A DNA stretch of 64,000 bases, taken from positions 1-64,000 of the IMG/VR virus record IMGVR_UViG_2895847146_000001; one strand, 5' to 3'. Position 1 is the first letter of the stretch. Every line of letters begins with the position of its first letter. A program made the translations under genes and the position numbers. Shown piece by piece: positions 9,041 to 63,177 of this stretch. The notes beneath the pieces were generated by a model. The model was not told where the DNA came from and did no database searches. It was given only the letters and a program-made list of their open reading frames with translations. Source of the DNA: a virus. Lineage: Duplodnaviria; Caudoviricetes.

Positions 9041-9343
9041 ATGGCTTTTCTTCAGACTATTTCCCAGCCTTGGCAACAGCACGCCGAGCACCTTCGCCAA
9101 GTACTGGCTCAGCTCGACCCCAAGGAGCGCCGCCGCATCCTCGATTACATCAGCATGCCCCCTGAGCCACCGAAGCCCAAGGCCTACCCCATCGGGGAAT
9201 GCATGCGGGCCGCCCGCCGGGTGGCGGAGCTTCTCCAATTGCATCAGAAGTGGACCCAGGCCAAGGCCCGCCGGGAGACGGCTCGGGAGCTGGGGGTAAG
9301 CCCGGTACAGCTGCGCCGGATGCTGCGCCACGTCGAACAATAA
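9041..9343 (+). CDS. HTH protein, candidate late-gene activator
   Basis: C-terminal ARRETARELGVSPVQLRRML HTH; last phage gene before the terminase operon. Confidence 0.6.
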   Translation: MAFLQTISQPWQQHAEHLRQVLAQLDPKERRRILDYISMPPEPPKPKAYPIGECMRAARRVAELLQLHQKWTQAKARRETARELGVSPVQLRRMLRHVEQ

Positions 9344-9594
9344 ACTGCGCGACGTTTCCAGCAGATAAGCAAAGCCAGGAGTTCACGAAACTCATCTCGA
9401 ATCCGAGTTTTGTGAATTTTGAAAATTGAACCTATTTCTTGAACTCAATCTGAGCTTTAGGACCACTTTGCCATGCTAGTGGACATGGATGGGCAGCGGT
9501 TCACGAATAGGAGTTAATTGAAGAAGTCGAGGTCACCGAATGTCAAAAAGCCCCAGCTTGATAGGCTGAGGCTTTTGCGTAGGTGAGGTAGAAG

Positions 9595-11100
9595 CTAGCG
9601 CTTTACAATACGGAAGCGGTCCTGGAAGTCGGCGCCGGTGTGCACCAAGTACAGACCGGTGGGCAACTCTGCTAGCGACACCTGGAATCCGGTGCCATGG
9701 AGCAGCACCCGCCCTGCTAGGTCGCTCACACGGTAGGCACCACGGACGGGCAGTTGCAACATGTCGTCCGTTGGGTTCGGGAAAGGCGCGGGCCGCTTCG
9801 TGGCAACTGGCCGCGCGGCCAGGGTCGTGCAGGCCTGCCGAATGGCCGCCTCCGAACAACCGGTCGCGTTACCGCTGATGTTGGCGCCGCCGCCGCGGAC
9901 CAAGTGCTGGCATAGCCAAGGCACGTTGCACCCCGTCAGGCTGCTGTTGTTGCGCAAATAGAGATAATTCAGCGTCGAATAGGTGGTAAACGTCAACCCC
10001 TGCGTGAGCGTGCGCAGCGCAGGGTTGTCGTCGATTGCGAGGTTTGTCGGGGCCGTGGCACCCGTGAAGCCGCTGATGCTGTCGAGCAAGACGTTTTGCG
10101 AGATACTTAGGTCCCGCGGCGGTGCGGCCATCGACCGAAAGCCGGTGATCTGTTCCAGGCCCGCGTTGTAGGTTATGGCGATAGACACGCCAAAGCGGCT
10201 GTTATTGAAGTTGGCAATCTCTTTCAAGCGCGGGTTGCGGCTGATGTTCACGAGCGAGACATCGCTGTTATCGAAGCCGGACAGGGTTTCCAAAACCGGG
10301 TTTTCCATGATGCCCACTTGCCCCGTAGCGACCAGTCCTCCATTAAAGCCTGAAATGGTGCGCAAGGCATCGTTTACGGTAATATTGACGGAACCAAGGC
10401 TGCGCAACGCGTTGAAGCCGACTATTGCCTGCAGCTGGGGATTACTTTGGACTTGAATATCTGCCGCGGCAGTGAGCGCGCCAAATGTCGAAATTCTATC
10501 CAGCAAGGGGTTGTTGGTGATGGTCAGCCGGCTCGTTAACGTGCGCAGGTTGTTAAAAGCATTGACGGAGCGCAGGGCGGAGTTTTGCGAAATGTAGACC
10601 TCCCCTGCGCTGGACAATAGTCCAAACCCGCGAATTTCTGTGAAAGACGTACCAGAGAAGGCCACACCGCCCGCGCTTACTAAGAAGGGGAAGTCGTCGA
10701 ACGTGCCCACTCCGCTTTGAATGTGCACCACTCCACCGACAGTGCCAATGTCATTGAGACCCGCCAAGCTGGCCAGCAGGTTCTTTTGAATAATTACGTC
10801 CCCTGTCACAGCAGTGATGTGTAGCAAGCCGCTCACGTCTGTAACACCTCCGTCCGGCGTGCCGTCGGCGTTGCGGTTGTAGCCCCGGATAAAGATGGAC
10901 TGAGCGGTGGAGCAGCGAGTTCCAGAGCCAAGGTAGTTGTTCAGCTCTTCCTGGGTGTTGAACCGAAGGGCGCAGGTTTGGCTTTGGGCGTGGGCCGATG
11001 AGGCCATTGCCAAGGCCAGCAGTAGCACAGGCAGCCAACTAAGGAGCCAGAGCAGACGGCGGGAGATAGAAGGGGGCGTGAAAGTGGAGCAGTAGGGCAT
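9595..11100 (-). CDS. T9SS-secreted leucine-rich/receptor-L-like repeat protein (moron)
   Basis: Signal peptide, repeated I..NP.L..I..F..L units, C-terminal PFPNPT...GLYLV type-A sorting domain. Confidence 0.85.
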   Translation of the reverse strand: MPYCSTFTPPSISRRLLWLLSWLPVLLLALAMASSAHAQSQTCALRFNTQEELNNYLGSGTRCSTAQSIFIRGYNRNADGTPDGGVTDVSGLLHITAVTGDVIIQKNLLASLAGLNDIGTVGGVVHIQSGVGTFDDFPFLVSAGGVAFSGTSFTEIRGFGLLSSAGEVYISQNSALRSVNAFNNLRTLTSRLTITNNPLLDRISTFGALTAAADIQVQSNPQLQAIVGFNALRSLGSVNITVNDALRTISGFNGGLVATGQVGIMENPVLETLSGFDNSDVSLVNISRNPRLKEIANFNNSRFGVSIAITYNAGLEQITGFRSMAAPPRDLSISQNVLLDSISGFTGATAPTNLAIDDNPALRTLTQGLTFTTYSTLNYLYLRNNSSLTGCNVPWLCQHLVRGGGANISGNATGCSEAAIRQACTTLAARPVATKRPAPFPNPTDDMLQLPVRGAYRVSDLAGRVLLHGTGFQVSLAELPTGLYLVHTGADFQDRFRIVKR

Positions 11101-42570: not shown

Positions 42571-42585
42571 GCAAGCACTCAGATG

Positions 42586-42670
42586 CAGAGGAGGAGGGAT
42601 TCGAACCCCCGGACCTTTAACAGTCAACGGTTTTCAAGACCGCCGCAATCGACCACTCTGCCACTCCTCT
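42586..42670 (-). tRNA. tRNA-Ser(TGA)
   Basis: AGAGGAG/CTCCTCT acceptor, anticodon loop CTTGAAA, long variable arm, GGGGG-TTCGAAT-CCCTC T-arm, G73. Confidence 0.95.
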
Positions 42671-50927: not shown

Positions 50928-50960
50928 AATTTGCATCACCATTTTTTACCAGCCTGTGTA

Positions 50961-51653
50961 ATGGAAATTCGCAAGATGTGGCCCGAAATCAAGGGCAAAG
51001 TTGCAGCCGTCTATCTTATTGGCAATACGCTGGATGACAGGGTTTATATCGGCTCATCCTGCCATGTGAGAAACCGCATGTCGTTTCACTTTCATTGCTT
51101 AAAGCGCGATAAGCACCACTCGGCTAAGCTTCAGAACTTCTATAATAAGTACGGCGAAGGCGTTATTACCACTTCCATTCTTGAGATTTGCGAAGTTGAC
51201 AACTTGATTGTGCGGGAGCAATACTGGATTGACTCTTACGTAAAGCACCACAAGGAGTCAGATTTGATGAACATAGCCCACAAAGCCGGAAGCTGTCGAG
51301 GCATTAAGCAAAACCCCGAGGTAGTAAAAGCTCGATGTGAACGAGCTAAGGCCAATCGACTAGCCAACCACATGGCGGAAGTGAGGGAAAGCATTGACAA
51401 GCAGAAGCGCGATGAAACAGAGATCTTGCGCAGAGCAAACAGTAAATGTGAAATATGCAACAAGCACATTGACTTAGTGTCCGATGACGATTTCCGGGAT
51501 TATCACACCATTTACAATACCAACACTGACAAGTATTGGCGGTTAGCAACCATTGACAGCCAACTATTGCTGTGCTACCATTGCCACACCAACATTGTAA
51601 GGCAGCTGCGCCACACGGTGAAAATAGCAAACTGGCTTGCCAAGCAACCATGA
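50961..51653 (+). CDS. GIY-YIG homing-endonuclease-like protein with C-terminal HNH-like zinc domain
   Basis: AVYLI.N...VYIGSS..R..H, REQYWID, CEIC...LLLCYHCH. Confidence 0.8.
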   Translation: MEIRKMWPEIKGKVAAVYLIGNTLDDRVYIGSSCHVRNRMSFHFHCLKRDKHHSAKLQNFYNKYGEGVITTSILEICEVDNLIVREQYWIDSYVKHHKESDLMNIAHKAGSCRGIKQNPEVVKARCERAKANRLANHMAEVRESIDKQKRDETEILRRANSKCEICNKHIDLVSDDDFRDYHTIYNTNTDKYWRLATIDSQLLLCYHCHTNIVRQLRHTVKIANWLAKQP

Positions 51654-60601: not shown

Positions 60602-61054
60602 ATGAAATCCCTCTTCTACACCCTCTTGTTGACCGCAGCCCTGGCCGGCTGCAGTAAAGAGTCGAACCCTGGGCCAGCCACCCCTCCACCCCCGCCAGCG
60701 ACTGATAATACAGTCTACCTGCGCGTGACGGCTGACAACGTGCAGCCTGGCCAGAAGGCATTTGTGCAGCAAGTAGGCACGCTGAAGGATGCGGTGACGC
60801 TTACCCTGCCAGCTGGAGCCTCCTCGCCGGCCAAGCAGATAGCCAACGAGAAGTCCGTGTTTGTCAAGGGCCAGCAAGTCCAGTTTGGCGTCTACACCAG
60901 CACGCAGCCGACCAAAGGCACCGGCACCATCCTGGCCGAGCTGGTACGCGGCACTACCGTTCTTTCCAGCGTTACCTGGGACAACGCCAGCCCACCCGCC
61001 TGGGACCAGCCGAGCCAGAGCGCGGTAGTCAATAAGACCATTACCCTGCCCTAA
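60602..61054 (+). CDS. Lipoprotein (moron)
   Basis: LAGC lipobox; flanked by terminators on both sides. Confidence 0.75.
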   Translation: MKSLFYTLLLTAALAGCSKESNPGPATPPPPPATDNTVYLRVTADNVQPGQKAFVQQVGTLKDAVTLTLPAGASSPAKQIANEKSVFVKGQQVQFGVYTSTQPTKGTGTILAELVRGTTVLSSVTWDNASPPAWDQPSQSAVVNKTITLP

Positions 61055-61057
61055 TAC

Positions 61058-61094
61058 AAAAAGCCCCGCCGTACTGCTACGGCGGGGCTTTTTT
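61058..61094. terminator. Bidirectional terminator
   Basis: AAAAAGCCCCGCCGTA-loop-TACGGCGGGGCTTTTTT. Confidence 0.85.
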
Positions 61095-61427
61095 AGCAAA
61101 GCTGCATTTCTTCCACTTGGCTCAGCCAAGGACACTTTGCGTTCCGCTTCACAGCGGGAACCTGCTCCACACATTCCAACAGCAGGTAATTTCACGAGGG
61201 CACTGCTTTCGCATTCAGTTTGCAACCTGATTTTCAGCCCTTGTATTGTAGAGAGGGCGGGATTGGATACCCGCAAGCCACGTTCTGCAAGCCAACTTTC
61301 ATTCCTGGCCTCCCGGCCCTTGCAGAGCACATGCTTGGCCGAAGCCGCACAACAAGGAGGATTTTACATATCCAGGGGCAATTGCCAACCTCTCTATTCT
61401 GTCAGCCGCTCGATTGGCGGCTGTATT
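61095..61427 (-). ncRNA. Putative large structured ncRNA of unknown class
   Basis: Nearly fully paired on the minus strand: long-range helix, multi-way junctions, UUCG and GNRA loops. Confidence 0.65.
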
Positions 61428-61646
61428 CTACTGCATTGCTTCCAAGTCCCGCCGCGCCTTGTTCCACGTCAGTAGGTGCAGCTCGAAGTTGGCCGCGTCC
61501 TGGATGCGTTTTTCGGCCACGGCCTTATCAAACCACTGTTGCTGACGCTGCTGCTCCCGACGGATGTAGTTTAGCGCATCCTGAAACGAGGGCCCGGGCT
61601 GTTTCGGCGTATAGAGCCACGAGAAGAATTTGCAAAGGAAGTCCAC
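61428..61646 (-). CDS. Phage hypothetical protein
   Basis: 72 aa, 2 nt after the upstream stop. Confidence 0.5.
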   Translation of the reverse strand: MDFLCKFFSWLYTPKQPGPSFQDALNYIRREQQRQQQWFDKAVAEKRIQDAANFELHLLTWNKARRDLEAMQ

Positions 61647-61648
61647 GG

Positions 61649-62188
61649 CTACTTTTCGATTTCGATATGAATATCATGCGGGGCTGGCTGGCTGCCGCCG
61701 AAATACAGGGAGTGCGTCAGGCCATAGCGTGGAACGCTAATTGTGTCTACCACGCGTATACAACCTATTAATCCATCGTCTTCAGCGAGAAAGGCATACT
61801 TGGGCAAACTAGATCCAGAAGACCACTGAAAGCACTTCTCAATTGTTAACCGAACCTTCTGCCCGAGCTTTACCTGGGCCACCAGCGGAAACTCCATCTG
61901 CTCGTTCCAGTTGCGTCGGCCGTTGACGTAGCAATACGCCAGCAGGTCGATGCACTGGTCTTGCTCGTTCCAGCGCCACCCAAAGCGAGCGGAATTTTCA
62001 TGCACGGCGAAGAAGCCGAAGCTCAGCCCGAACAGCTTGTTTACGTCCAGGCTGTTATACTGCGGTAGCGTGTAGCGGCAGGACTCCCCGAAGGTGACAT
62101 ACCGCGAAATGCTCTTGCGGCCCAGATGCGGCCACGAAGAGAACAGGCGGTTGTCCTGGTGCTTGCCTTGCTTGATGGTGTGCCGCAT
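61649..62188 (-). CDS. Phage hypothetical protein
   Basis: DVNKLFGLS..H.NSARFGWR...YFGG...APHD. Confidence 0.7.
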   Translation of the reverse strand: MRHTIKQGKHQDNRLFSSWPHLGRKSISRYVTFGESCRYTLPQYNSLDVNKLFGLSFGFFAVHENSARFGWRWNEQDQCIDLLAYCYVNGRRNWNEQMEFPLVAQVKLGQKVRLTIEKCFQWSSGSSLPKYAFLAEDDGLIGCIRVVDTISVPRYGLTHSLYFGGSQPAPHDIHIEIEK

Positions 62189-62428: not shown

Positions 62429-62502
62429 TGGCACACCCTCGTTGGTTCGAACAACGCGCCCTCGGATTTGGAGTCCAAGGAGCCTCCACTGGCTCCGGGT
62501 GC
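62429..62502 (-). tRNA. tRNA-Trp(CCA), atypical
   Basis: GCACCCG/AGGGTGT acceptor (one mismatch), loop CTCCAAA, CGTTG-TTCGAAC-CAACG, G73, encoded CCA. Confidence 0.75.
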
Positions 62503-62510
62503 AAGTAAAG

Positions 62511-62582
62511 GGTGTTAGCGGGAGTCGAACCCTGTCCTCCGCATTCACAGTGCGGCGCTCTAACCAATTAAGCTACTAACAC
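62511..62582 (-). tRNA. tRNA-His(GTG), short T-stem
   Basis: GTGTTAG/CTAACAC, CCGCA-CTGTGAA-TGCGG, C73; 3' T-stem strand one nt short, no encoded G-1. Confidence 0.75.
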
Positions 62583-62584
62583 AG

Positions 62585-62658
62585 TCGGGGTGGCAGGACT
62601 CGAACCTGCGGCCTCCTGCTCCCAAAGCAGGCATCATAGCCAACTAGACCACACCCCG
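62585..62658 (-). tRNA. tRNA-Pro(TGG)
   Basis: CGGGGTG/CACCCCG, CCTGC-TTTGGGA-GCAGG, GCAGG-TTCGAGT-CCTGC. Confidence 0.92.
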
Positions 62659-62729
62659 GGTTGGCTTATTTCGCGTGGGAGCCACCCACCAAAGAACGAG
62701 CCGCTTGCCTATACTGCGACGAAGGTGTT

Positions 62730-62807
62730 TGGTTTGACTGGTCGATTTCGATACGACAAATGTTGGCTTATCAAGAGCCAATTGCTTTACCTTTAAGCTA
62801 CAGTCAA
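62730..62807 (-). tRNA. Non-canonical tRNA-like gene (Ile-GAT with 9-nt loop, or TGA anticodon)
   Basis: TTGACTG/CAGTCAA, normal D-arm, TTGGC-TCTTGATAA-GCCAA, T-loop ATCGAAA, A73 and encoded CCA. Confidence 0.65.
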
Positions 62808-62855
62808 ATCTTTACCCTACGCGAAGGACCACGACGTTAAGCGCCTACGGCGGTG

Positions 62856-62927
62856 TAGCGAAACACAGATTCGAACTGCGGACCCCTCGGTTATGAGCCG
62901 AGTACTCTACCCCTGAGCTACTTCGCT
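62856..62927 (-). tRNA. tRNA with CAT anticodon (Met or Ile2)
   Basis: AGCGAAG/TTTCGCT, CTCGG-CTCATAA-CCGAG, CGCAG-TTCGAAT-CTGTG. Confidence 0.9.
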
Positions 62928-63147: not shown

Positions 63148-63177
63148 CAAATATACCGTTTCTATCTTTAAAGTCAA
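63148..63177 (-). promoter_or_regulatory. Bacteroidota sigma-A-type promoter for the tRNA/ncRNA unit
   Basis: TATATTTG at 63155-63148 (TAnnTTTG) with TTG about 20 nt upstream. Confidence 0.65.

What the first reader, a model, noticed from the sequence alone, without database searches (positions are those of the whole stretch)
61095..61427. ~330-nt ornate structured RNA ending the prophage B tRNA transcript
Seen: the minus-strand gap between a stop codon (61428) and a strong terminator is almost entirely paired. An 8-bp long-range helix TAGAGAGG/CCTCTCTA (61396-61389 with 61256-61249) closes a multi-way junction containing GGAT/ATCC, GGC-TTCG-GCC, a long CAAGC..TCTGCAAG/CTTGCAGA..GCTTG arm with GGCC-GGGA-GGCC, and GCGGG/CCCGC. 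Next come an AGGGC/GCCCT three-way junction (TCAG/CTGA, TGC-GAAA-GCA), ACCTGCT/AGCAGGT, CCGCT-GTGA-AGCGG and a GCAAAG/CTTTGC domain. TCCTTGTTGT (61358-61349) can also pair with ACAATACAAGGG (61249-61238) as a pseudoknot or alternative fold. Known: large ncRNAs such as GOLLD and ROOL occur in prophages near tRNAs. Inference: I cannot match this to RNase P RNA, tmRNA, SRP or an intron, so it may be a new large phage ncRNA class.
Basis: partly seen in the sequence, partly recalled or inferred. Interest (0 to 1): 0.85.

Follow-up and report, generated by a model that had tools for sequence, protein, structure and literature searches.

The report
Phage RNA with a tRNA-like core
The non-coding tail of a prophage tRNA operon looks like a real structured RNA built from a tRNA-serine look-alike carrying a large insert plus a small three-armed module shared with one other prophage, and it fits no catalogued RNA family.

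Summary
Folding energy alone is weak evidence. The sense strand without the terminator gives z -1.18, and the z of -3.81 depends on the terminator hairpin. Three other lines support a minus-strand RNA.

- GNRA/UNCG tetraloop mini-hairpins: 7, against 1.14 in shuffles (0 of 2000 reach 7), and 0 on the plus strand.
- A covariance model of 61245-61398 aligns end to end with the host's own tRNA-Ser(CGA) (22.9 bits). It does not align with tRNA-Leu, tRNA-Tyr or the phage tRNAs. The 'multi-way junction' is a tRNA-Ser-like cloverleaf with about 84 extra nt at the variable-arm position. ARAGORN and the Rfam tRNA model both reject it.
- The AGGGC/GCCCU three-way junction recurs 57/63 identical, with one compensatory pair, inside a roughly 570-nt non-coding unit of another prophage of the same genus.

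No Rfam family reaches its threshold; the best is manA at 17.7 bits against 55.2. No full-length homologue was found in about 420 genomes of the family and order, or in loci from IMG/VR and metagenomes. There are no expression data.

Verdict: probably a genuine, rare, modular phage ncRNA (tRNA-framed). Its function is unknown and the comparative support is thin.

The parts
63148..63155 (-). Candidate Bacteroidota-type promoter -7 box TATATTTG, with TTG about 22 nt upstream. It is the only TAnnTTTG on the minus strand between 60950 and 63300.
Evidence: motif scan only; transcription was not shown.
62429..62927 (-). Phage tRNA array: Met, an atypical tRNA at 62730-62807, Pro, His and Trp.
61649..62188 (-). 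179-aa ORF of unknown function. It is a real gene, with homologues in 94 of 274 genomes of the family, own genome included.
   Evidence: No Pfam or PHROG hit.
61428..61646 (-). 72-aa ORF (GTG start 2 nt after the stop of the 179-aa ORF). No homologue was found, so it is not shown to be a real gene.
61403..61423 (-). 5' hairpin CAGCCGC-(7 nt)-GCGGCUG, just ahead of the tRNA-like domain.
   Evidence: An analogous hairpin precedes the G074 element.
61249..61396 (-). tRNA-Ser-like domain. Its parts:
- acceptor-like helix 61389-61396 with 61249-61256 (its inner 7 bp are identical to the host tRNA-Ser CGA/GGA acceptor)
- UU
- mini D-like hairpin 61377-61386
- anticodon-like arm 61359-61373, with the 7-nt loop AUGUAAA
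- T-like arm 61257-61274 (5 bp, 8-nt loop UAUCCAAU), which abuts the acceptor 3' strand
   Evidence: Model R1 built from it aligns end to end with tRNA-Ser(CGA) at 22.9 bits, Ser(GGA) at 15.1 and Ser(UGA) at 12.9. It gives no hit to Ser(GCU), five tRNA-Leu, tRNA-Tyr or the phage tRNAs. It also hits tRNA-Ser(GCU) of G130 at 23.6 bits. Host acceptor sequences.
61275..61358 (-). Insert of about 84 nt at the variable-arm position. It holds the GGC-UUCG-GCC and GGCC-GGGA-GGCC hairpins and a long arm. Its pairing is uncertain: two alternatives lie within 3.4 kcal/mol.
   Evidence: No homologue was found.
61193..61246 (-). Conserved three-way junction:
- outer helix 61243-61245 with 61193-61195
- P1 61237-61241 with 61197-61201
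- P2 61227-61230 with 61215-61218, loop GUUGCAAA (contains the palindrome UUGCAA)
- P3 61211-61213 with 61204-61206, loop GAAA
   Evidence: R2 hit in G188 at 57.2 bits, E 1.6e-9. The alignment is 57/63 identical. All 30 of 30 cells are paired, one pair changes A-U to C-G and one A-U to G-U. By blastn it is 91% identical over 57 nt.
61096..61187 (-). Three further predicted hairpin domains: 61160-61187, 61142-61159 (GUGA loop) and 61096-61140 (GCAAAG/CUUUGC).
   Evidence: MFE only. R2 aligns a GCAAA...(35 nt)...UUUGC helix in G188, which is weak support.
61058..61094 (-). Intrinsic terminator, bidirectional in form, shared with the convergent lipoprotein gene 60602-61054 (+).

Best explanation
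The stretch is the non-coding 3' end of a prophage transcription unit (promoter, five tRNAs, small ORFs, RNA, terminator). It encodes a modular structured RNA.

Module 1 (61249-61396) is a tRNA-Ser-derived frame. It has an acceptor helix identical to the host tRNA-Ser(CGA/GGA) acceptor, a stacked T-like arm, an anticodon-like arm and a stunted D arm. It carries an insert of about 84 nt where tRNA-Ser has its long variable arm.

Module 2 (61193-61246) is a small three-way junction that is conserved in another prophage of the same genus.

Inferred, not shown: the acceptor plus T minihelix is recognised by the host's tRNA-processing enzymes (RNase P on the 5' side, a 3' tRNA-end nuclease on the other). 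These would cut the RNA out of the operon transcript and stabilise it. The tRNA frame would then act as a natural scaffold for the inserted fold, and the 3' piece with the junction would end at the terminator.

The cellular role is unknown. The likeliest roles are a tRNA mimic or decoy for a tRNA-binding host factor, or a self-associating structural RNA in the manner of other phage RNAs found beside tRNA islands.
For: 1. Strand-specific tetraloop excess: 7 against 1.14, 0/2000 shuffles reach 7, and 0 on the plus strand.
2. R1 aligns end to end with host tRNA-Ser(CGA), Ser(GGA) and Ser(UGA), and with none of the other 7 class II tRNAs or the phage tRNAs. It also aligns with tRNA-Ser(GCU) of G130.
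3. With the insert removed in silico, ARAGORN at 70% threshold calls a cloverleaf in 66 of 72 variants, against 9 calls in 72 shuffled controls.
4. The inner 7 bp of the closing helix equal the tRNA-Ser acceptor in all 4 hosts checked. The same helix with the same flanks (12 + 9 nt) closes an otherwise unrelated element beside the homologous 178-aa gene in G074. AGAGAGG/CCUCUCU also closes a third, unrelated element in G171 and G175.
5. The three-way junction is conserved in G188 with a compensatory pair while the flanks share nothing. The G188 unit has its own promoter box and terminator and folds with z -5.5.
6. Context: the element is internal to a prophage (Erf, DnaB, RusA and exonuclease genes). 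One promoter box lies upstream of the tRNAs and one strong terminator lies after the RNA.
7. No Pfam family matches the overlapping ORFs.
Against: - Fold energy of the sense strand without the terminator is not better than shuffles (z -1.18, -1.17, -1.38). The antisense strand scores better (z -3.35).
- The Rfam tRNA model gives no hit at E<=10.
- ARAGORN rejects the native sequence and 0 of 255 insert-deleted variants at default threshold.
- The D loop lacks GG, and the T loop has 8 nt.
- The tRNA-like domain as a whole has no homologue. R1 gives only chance-level hits (<=20.6 bits) in 150 genus genomes. It gives none in 80 metagenome loci, and none in 11 IMG/VR loci and 3 IMG/VR records. In G074 it scores 10.1 bits, from the closing helix only.
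- The junction is known from only two sequences with one compensatory pair. The shuffle control cannot discriminate (255/500), so recent DNA exchange could explain the identity.
- Tetraloop excess is not seen in the G188, G074 or G171 RNAs.
- Processing, stability and expression are all untested.
Confidence: 0.5

Rival explanations
1. Decaying gene remnant. A phage tRNA-Ser gene was disrupted by an insertion and is drifting. The rest is an ordinary 3' untranslated tail whose hairpins are what a G+U-rich sequence gives by chance. It has no function of its own.
For: Sense-strand fold energies are not better than shuffles. ARAGORN and the Rfam tRNA model reject it. There is no full-length homologue. 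The G074 relative keeps only the closing helix.
Against: Drift would not give 7 tetraloop-capped hairpins on one strand. It would not keep 12 + 9 nt of the closing helix identical in two lineages whose interiors are unrelated. It would not keep a 57/63-identical junction with a compensatory pair in an unrelated flank.
Confidence: 0.2
2. Cis-acting 3' end of the operon mRNA. The structures protect the tRNA-ORF transcript from 3' exonucleases, or the tRNA-like fold is merely an RNase P/E processing signal that separates transcript segments. There is no trans-acting RNA product.
For: It sits directly before the terminator, with no separate promoter box upstream. tRNA-like processing signals inside polycistronic transcripts are known (recalled, not from a call).
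Against: In G188 the same junction lies in a free-standing unit with its own promoter box and terminator and no upstream ORF in the unit. About 330 nt with a conserved junction is far more than end protection needs.
Confidence: 0.12
3. DNA-level element at the point where the early (+) and late (-) gene modules converge. Candidates are a replication or packaging site, or a relic tRNA-Ser attachment site, read as inverted repeats in DNA rather than RNA.
For: Most helices are Watson-Crick, so both strands fold, and the antisense z is -3.35. The 3' part resembles the T arm and acceptor of tRNA-Ser, a common integration target.
Against: The element is internal to the integrated prophage. No repeat of the tRNA-Ser(CGA) region was found in the 121 kb between the window start and that gene; the one significant match was the tRNA-Ser(UGA) gene at window 42585-42670. 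The similarity to tRNA-Ser is not exact, as a working att core would require. The tetraloop signal is strand-specific. Both halves of the acceptor are present, which an att relic would not need.
Confidence: 0.05
4. A divergent member of the manA RNA family (RF01745), a riboswitch-like element of T4-like cyanophages.
For: manA is the only Rfam match inside the region: 61252-61422, 17.7 bits, E 0.018-0.042. The 5' hairpin and the GGGUAU..AAUCCC hairpin are aligned.
Against: The score is far below the gathering score of 55.2. The model's closing pseudoknot helix is deleted in the alignment. manA RNAs lie in 5' UTRs of sugar, nucleotide and photosynthesis genes in marine phages (PMC2864571, passages read). 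This element lies at a 3' end before a terminator in a soil-type Bacteroidota prophage.
Confidence: 0.03

Closest known systems
GOLLD and ROOL RNAs (large ornate phage/prophage RNAs)
   Same: Encoded in prophages, often beside tRNA islands and possibly co-transcribed with them, with unknown function (PMC5737381 and bioRxiv 10.1101/2024.12.08.627333, passages read). GOLLD has a conserved part and a variable part. Self-interacting kissing loops hold the assemblies together. Here the most conserved loop holds the palindrome UUGCAA.
   Different: No Rfam match to either family at E<=10. The size is about 330 nt, against about 580 and over 800. Conservation is limited to a junction of about 60 nt in two genomes. 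No multimer evidence exists; the kissing-loop idea is inference only.
tRNA-Ser (class II tRNA) of the host
   Same: Identical 7-bp acceptor, U at position 8, anticodon-stem GGAU..AUCC, a 5-bp T stem abutting the acceptor, and extra sequence at the variable-arm position.
   Different: A 3-bp D stem with a 4-nt loop and no GG. An 8-nt T loop. An anticodon-like loop reading GUA rather than a Ser anticodon. About 84 nt in place of a variable arm of about 15-20 nt. The discriminator is A, not G. It is rejected by ARAGORN and the Rfam tRNA model.
Phage T4 RNAC and RNAD (stable small RNAs)
   Same: Phage-encoded stable RNAs of still unknown function (PMC9697503, passages read). That they lie in the tRNA gene cluster and have tRNA-like ends is recalled, not from a call.
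   Different: They come from a different host phylum and are shorter.
manA RNA (RF01745)
   Same: Phage-borne. It has a 5' hairpin followed by a multi-stem junction whose last hairpin resembles GGGUAU..AAUCCC.
   Different: 17.7 bits against a gathering score of 55.2. It differs in location, in taxa and in lacking an aligned closing helix.
DUF3800-associated RNA motifs (DUF3800-VIII, RF03075)
   Same: Structured RNAs followed by intrinsic terminators, with many unrelated folds in one genomic niche (PMC5737381). The second domain of the G074 relative scores 36.4 bits against DUF3800-VIII.
   Different: That score is below the gathering score of 40.2. The window's own RNA gives no DUF3800-family match. 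No DUF3800 gene was found in G074, and the only one in the window's genome is on another contig.

Membership tests
tRNA (RF00005 / ARAGORN cloverleaf) | Scores above threshold with a tRNA covariance model | tested here: not met
   No RF00005 match in 60900-61700 at E<=10, while the phage tRNAs score 41.8-65.2 bits.
tRNA (RF00005 / ARAGORN cloverleaf) | Canonical cloverleaf with D loop GG and a 7-nt T loop, callable by ARAGORN | tested here: not met
   The native sequence is not called even at 70% threshold. 0 of 255 insert-deleted variants are called at default. 12 of 72 are called at 80% and 66 of 72 at 70%, as anticodon GUA; shuffled controls give 1 and 9 calls in 72.
tRNA (RF00005 / ARAGORN cloverleaf) | 7-bp acceptor stacked directly on a 5-bp T stem (the minihelix recognised by RNase P) | tested here: met
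   61389-61395/61250-61256 abuts 61270-61274/61257-61261 with no nucleotide between. Cleavage itself is not testable here.
manA RNA (RF01745) | Rfam gathering score of 55.2 bits | tested here: not met
   17.7 bits.
manA RNA (RF01745) | Location in 5' UTRs of sugar, nucleotide or photosynthesis genes of marine phages or gamma-proteobacteria | tested here: not met
   It lies at the 3' end of an operon, followed by a terminator and a convergent gene. Family description from PMC2864571.
GOLLD / ROOL | Match to the family covariance model | tested here: not met
   Neither family is among the 21 matches at E<=10, nor in the G188 unit at E<=1.
GOLLD / ROOL | Prophage location near tRNA genes | tested here: met
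GOLLD / ROOL | Homo-oligomeric assembly | not testable with these tools
   Only a palindromic loop (UUGCAA) was noted. The loop-loop duplex is -5.9 kcal/mol.
tmRNA | tRNA-like ends enclosing a tag reading frame and pseudoknots, callable by ARAGORN | tested here: not met
   ARAGORN reports no tmRNA in the window.
DUF3800-VIII RNA (RF03075) | Gathering score of 40.2 bits and a nearby DUF3800 gene | tested here: not met
   The window RNA gives no match. The G074 relative scores 36.4 bits. No PF12686 gene was found in G074, and the only one in the window's genome is on contig C8.

The most novel reading that the evidence does not exclude
Prophages of this genus use the host tRNA-Ser frame (acceptor helix, with or without the T arm) as a natural scaffold. 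They embed unrelated structured RNA modules in it, so that host tRNA-processing enzymes excise and stabilise them. The modules are exchanged between phages like cassettes. One is the three-way junction with a self-complementary loop. Another is the 57-nt module that sits in the anticodon loop of a tRNA-like gene in G171 and in a free-standing 570-nt RNA in G188. They may act as tRNA decoys or as self-assembling RNAs during infection.
Probability: 0.2. Interest if true: 0.85.

Novelty: new variant of a known kind. Interest (0 to 1): 0.55.

Why it matters
Phage RNAs beside tRNA islands (GOLLD, ROOL, T4 RNAC/RNAD) are abundant yet have no known function. An example in which a recognisable host tRNA frame carries a foreign fold would give a concrete, testable handle. 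The tests would be RNase P/Z processing, SerRS or tRNA-nuclease binding, and dimerisation through a defined loop.

The same small modules also reappear in different RNA contexts in related prophages. This hints that such RNAs evolve by module exchange, and it would explain why sequence searches find so few full-length relatives.

If the reading is wrong, the region is just a decayed tRNA gene in a 3' tail and of little interest.

Tried and rejected
**DNA similarity of the region.** The own genome gave only terminator-like repeats. There were 0 matches in 60 relatives and none in the phage collection.

**Synteny through the 179-aa gene.**
- Single-protein scans of IMG/VR found nothing.
- Close homologues in G197 and G130 have no such RNA next to them.
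- An alignment-based scan gave 11 IMG/VR loci and 80 metagenome loci. None has an R1 hit.
- R2 found nothing in the 24 sources it was run on: the window, 4 related prophage loci, the 11 IMG/VR loci and 8 of the 80 metagenome loci.
- Three IMG/VR records searched whole gave 0 hits. Two metagenome records were not held.

**Closing-helix pattern.** IMG/VR gave one chance hit inside a ParA-like gene.

**Junction patterns.**
- The genome collection gave 17 loci. Only one is real; the rest lie in coding regions, for example the antisense of an ECF sigma gene or an aminopeptidase gene.
- IMG/VR gave 3 + 1 chance hits.

**R1 hits in the genus (E 0.04-0.8 per genome).** These were inspected and rejected as chance. 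One is the antisense of a TPR gene. Its in-frame look made me check the plus-strand frames, but no coding support followed.

**R2 hit in G121, and R3 hits of <=21.6 bits in the family and order samples.** Rejected as chance.

**L085.** The region after its tRNAs is not clearly structured (z -1.32).

**The GUUGCAAC similarity in G074.** This is probably not homologous to the junction loop, because there it forms the stem of a DUF3800-VIII-like hairpin.

**ARAGORN's intron mode.** At lowered thresholds it gives about 90 calls in 753 kb of control DNA, so its call on the G171 gene carries little weight.

**Sequencing runs.** No RNA holder was listed; there was one DNA run with a 0.05 share of words.

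**Not used.** Structure prediction, complex prediction and the protein database searches were not used, as they were not relevant to an RNA.

**Not seen.** Supplementary files of PMC2864571 and PMC5737381 (family alignments and notes on manA and DUF3800-VIII) are closed. They could bear on those two comparisons.
Full report
**What is there.** On the minus strand a 72-aa ORF ends at 61428 (TAG 61430-61428). A strong terminator hairpin with a U run lies at about 61058-61094.

The minimum-free-energy fold reproduces the closing helix UAGAGAGG/CCUCUCUA, the GGAU and GCGGG hairpins and the whole 3' half.

**Is it more than chance?**
- With the terminator included, the fold is better than all shuffles (z -3.81, 0/100).
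- Without the terminator, the sense strand is not better (z -1.18, 11/100).
- The two halves alone are not better either (z -1.17, 31/200, and -1.38, 18/200).
- The antisense strand scores better (z -3.35). The helices are mostly Watson-Crick, and the sense strand is G+U-rich, which raises its shuffle background.

Energy therefore says little. A strand-specific signal does exist. Seven GNRA or UNCG tetraloops closed by at least three pairs lie on the minus strand, against 1.14 expected (0 of 2000 dinucleotide shuffles reach 7). None lies on the plus strand, against 0.53 expected. No Pfam family matches the two plus-strand ORFs that overlap the region.

**Known families.**
- At Rfam gathering scores the window holds only five tRNAs.
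- At E<=10 the only match inside the region is manA (RF01745): 17.7 bits against a gathering score of 55.2, with the model's closing helix deleted. The other matches all sit on the terminator.
- manA RNAs are described in 5' UTRs of cyanophage and marine genes (PMC2864571, passages). That does not fit a 3' position before a terminator.
- ARAGORN finds no tRNA or tmRNA here.

**Context.**
- The plus-strand genes at 47-59 kb are phage recombination and replication genes: Erf, a homing endonuclease, DnaB and RusA.
- The minus-strand side holds an exonuclease gene, preceded by a run of large minus-strand ORFs up to 2304 aa that I did not annotate. Downstream of the exonuclease gene come the tRNA array and the 179-aa and 72-aa ORFs. 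The region therefore lies inside a prophage, where two gene modules converge.
- Only one Bacteroidota-type promoter box (TAnnTTTG) lies on the minus strand between 60950 and 63300, at 63155-63148, upstream of the tRNAs. Co-transcription with the tRNAs is therefore plausible, but it is inferred.

**The 5' half is a tRNA-Ser look-alike.** A pattern search for the closing helix in 274 genomes of the family returned exact matches only in the window's genome and in G074. The one-mismatch matches were mostly genuine tRNA-Ser(CGA) genes.

The host's tRNA-Ser(CGA) and tRNA-Ser(GGA) have the acceptor AGAGAGG/CCUCUCU. A covariance model (R1) built from 61245-61398 gave these results:

| Target | Score |
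|---|---|
| Host tRNA-Ser(CGA) | 22.9 bits, E 1.9e-4 in 132 kb |
| Host tRNA-Ser(GGA) | 15.1 bits |
| Host tRNA-Ser(UGA) | 12.9 bits |
| tRNA-Ser(GCU), five tRNA-Leu, tRNA-Tyr, the phage tRNAs | no match |
| tRNA-Ser(GCU) of G130 | 23.6 bits |

In these alignments the arms line up one to one:
- acceptor with acceptor
- the GGC-AAUU-GCC mini-hairpin with the D arm
- GGAU-AUGUAAA-AUCC with the anticodon arm
- GCGGG-UAUCCAAU-CCCGC with the T arm

About 84 nt (61275-61358) stand where tRNA-Ser has its variable arm.

It is not a working canonical tRNA by the usual tests. ARAGORN rejects it, and also rejects 0 of 255 insert-deleted variants at default threshold. Only at 70% threshold are 66 of 72 variants called (anticodon GUA), against 9 calls in 72 shuffled controls. 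Two other first-stage notes on the same stretch had already proposed a tRNA mimic with a giant variable arm. The tests here support the topology and add the specific link to tRNA-Ser.

**The three-way junction is conserved.** A model of the 3' half (R2) found one strong match in 150 genomes of the genus: G188, 57.2 bits, E 1.6e-9.

The shared part is the junction at 61193-61246. It is 57 of 63 positions identical, and all 15 pairs are kept in both sequences. One P2 pair changes from A-U to C-G and one P1 pair from A-U to G-U. With two sequences the shuffle control cannot discriminate (255/500), while slid registers pair only 23-50% of cells. Outside the junction the two RNAs share nothing but terminator-like sequence.

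In G188 the junction lies in a non-coding unit of about 570 nt. That unit has its own TAAATTTG box and terminator. It sits next to an integrase and an HNH endonuclease gene beside tRNA-Lys. It folds with z -5.5 and has no Rfam match. A genome contigs record that holds this junction is titled as an uncultured Hymenobacter, which names the genus.

Searches for further copies found none:
- A junction model (R3) found no further copy above 21.6 bits in 150 family genomes or 150 order genomes.
- Exact junction patterns found none in the species-representative genome collection or in IMG/VR.

**A partial relative, and a mosaic picture.**
- **G074.** About 250 nt downstream of the homologue of the 179-aa gene, an element is closed by the same helix with the same flanks (AUAGAGAGGUUG ... 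CCUCUCUAC). Its interior is an unrelated 64 nt, and a similar hairpin precedes it. The region folds with z -3.6. R1 sees only the helix (10.1 bits). Its next domain scores 36.4 bits against DUF3800-VIII, below the 40.2 threshold, and no DUF3800 gene was found in that genome.
- **G188 and G171.** The 5' module of the G188 RNA is 86% identical to a stretch in G171. By eye, that stretch occupies the anticodon loop of a tRNA-like gene with canonical D and T arms, in a 1.1-kb non-coding tRNA island.
- **A third element.** It occurs in G171 and G175 and is again closed by AGAGAGG/CCUCUCU. Its homologue in G166 has the same core but a wholly different, complementary closing helix.

Small structured modules thus recur in different frames in prophages of this genus, and the tRNA-Ser acceptor sequence recurs as the frame.

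**How it most likely works.**
- Shown: the sequence features, the orientation, the similarity to tRNA-Ser, the conserved junction and the prophage context.
- Inferred: transcription from the promoter upstream of the tRNAs. Recognition of the 12-bp acceptor/T stack by RNase P and a 3' tRNA-end nuclease. Release of a tRNA-framed RNA of about 150 nt and a 3' RNA of about 190 nt carrying the junction. The role is open: a tRNA decoy or mimic, or self-association through the palindromic loop UUGCAA (loop-loop duplex -5.9 kcal/mol).
- The closest analogues are GOLLD and ROOL, which lie in prophages near tRNA islands and assemble through kissing loops (passages read in 10.1101/2024.12.08.627333 and PMC5737381). 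T4 RNAC and RNAD are also close, with function unknown (PMC9697503); their tRNA-like ends are recalled, not from a call.
- Membership in any of these, or in manA, tRNA, tmRNA or DUF3800-VIII, was tested and not met, or could not be tested.

**Rivals.** They are a decayed tRNA-Ser gene in a 3' tail, a purely cis-acting processing or stability element, a DNA-level site, and a divergent manA. The first is the strongest. It is favoured by the weak fold energies and the lack of full-length homologues. It is disfavoured by the one-strand tetraloop excess, the identical closing helix in two lineages and the conserved junction.

**Verdict.** This is a real feature and most likely a rare, modular phage ncRNA. 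It is not a member of a catalogued family, and the comparative evidence rests on two or three genomes. No expression data were available: no RNA holder was listed.

Noticed in passing
L189:4786-5375 (+) (G188): A non-coding unit of about 570 nt with its own TAAATTTG promoter box and terminator. It lies next to an integrase and an HNH endonuclease gene beside tRNA-Lys. It folds with z -5.5 and has no Rfam match. It shares the three-way junction with the window and a 57-nt 5' module with G171.
   Followed up: partly
L225:1000-2125 (+) (G171): A 1.1-kb non-coding tRNA island. After tRNA-Glu (1302-1376) comes, by eye, a tRNA-like gene (about 1478-1600) with canonical D and T arms whose anticodon loop holds an insert of about 41 nt. 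That insert is 86% identical to the 5' module of the G188 RNA. The Rfam tRNA model does not call it, and the ARAGORN intron-mode call is unreliable.
   Followed up: partly
L225:1795-1966 (G171); L234 (G175); L236 (G166): An element of about 170 nt with a conserved core. Its closing helix is GAAGAGAGGUU/AACCUCUCUUC in two genomes and GAAAACGACG/CGUCGUUUUC in the third, which is a fully compensatory swap. It is a likely unnamed ncRNA family; the G171 locus gave no Rfam match.
   Followed up: partly
L042:9447-9512 (-) (G074): A sub-threshold match to DUF3800-VIII RNA (36.4 bits, gathering score 40.2) directly after the G074 element. No DUF3800 gene was found in that genome.
   Followed up: partly
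window 62730-62807 (-): A fifth tRNA of the phage array. The Rfam tRNA model scores it 41.8 bits, but ARAGORN misses it at default. At 90% threshold ARAGORN calls it with anticodon UGA (Ser) in a short, class-I-like body.
   Followed up: partly
window 61649-62188 (-): The 179-aa protein has no Pfam or PHROG family. It has relatives in 94 of 274 genomes of the family (own genome included), in IMG/VR and in metagenomes. In several phages it lies next to tRNA arrays.
   Followed up: partly
L042 (rc of 9101-9900, positions about 560-745) and L040:11840-12040: G074 and G197 share a conserved leader just upstream of their phage tRNA-Pro. It has a promoter-like box, a short ORF and a GGGCCGGAUGCCUGUUGCC...terminator-like hairpin, and could be an attenuator of the tRNA array.
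   Followed up: no
window 50931-51653 (+): A homing-endonuclease-like gene (GIY-YIG/HNH PHROGs) lies inside the phage replication module.
   Followed up: no
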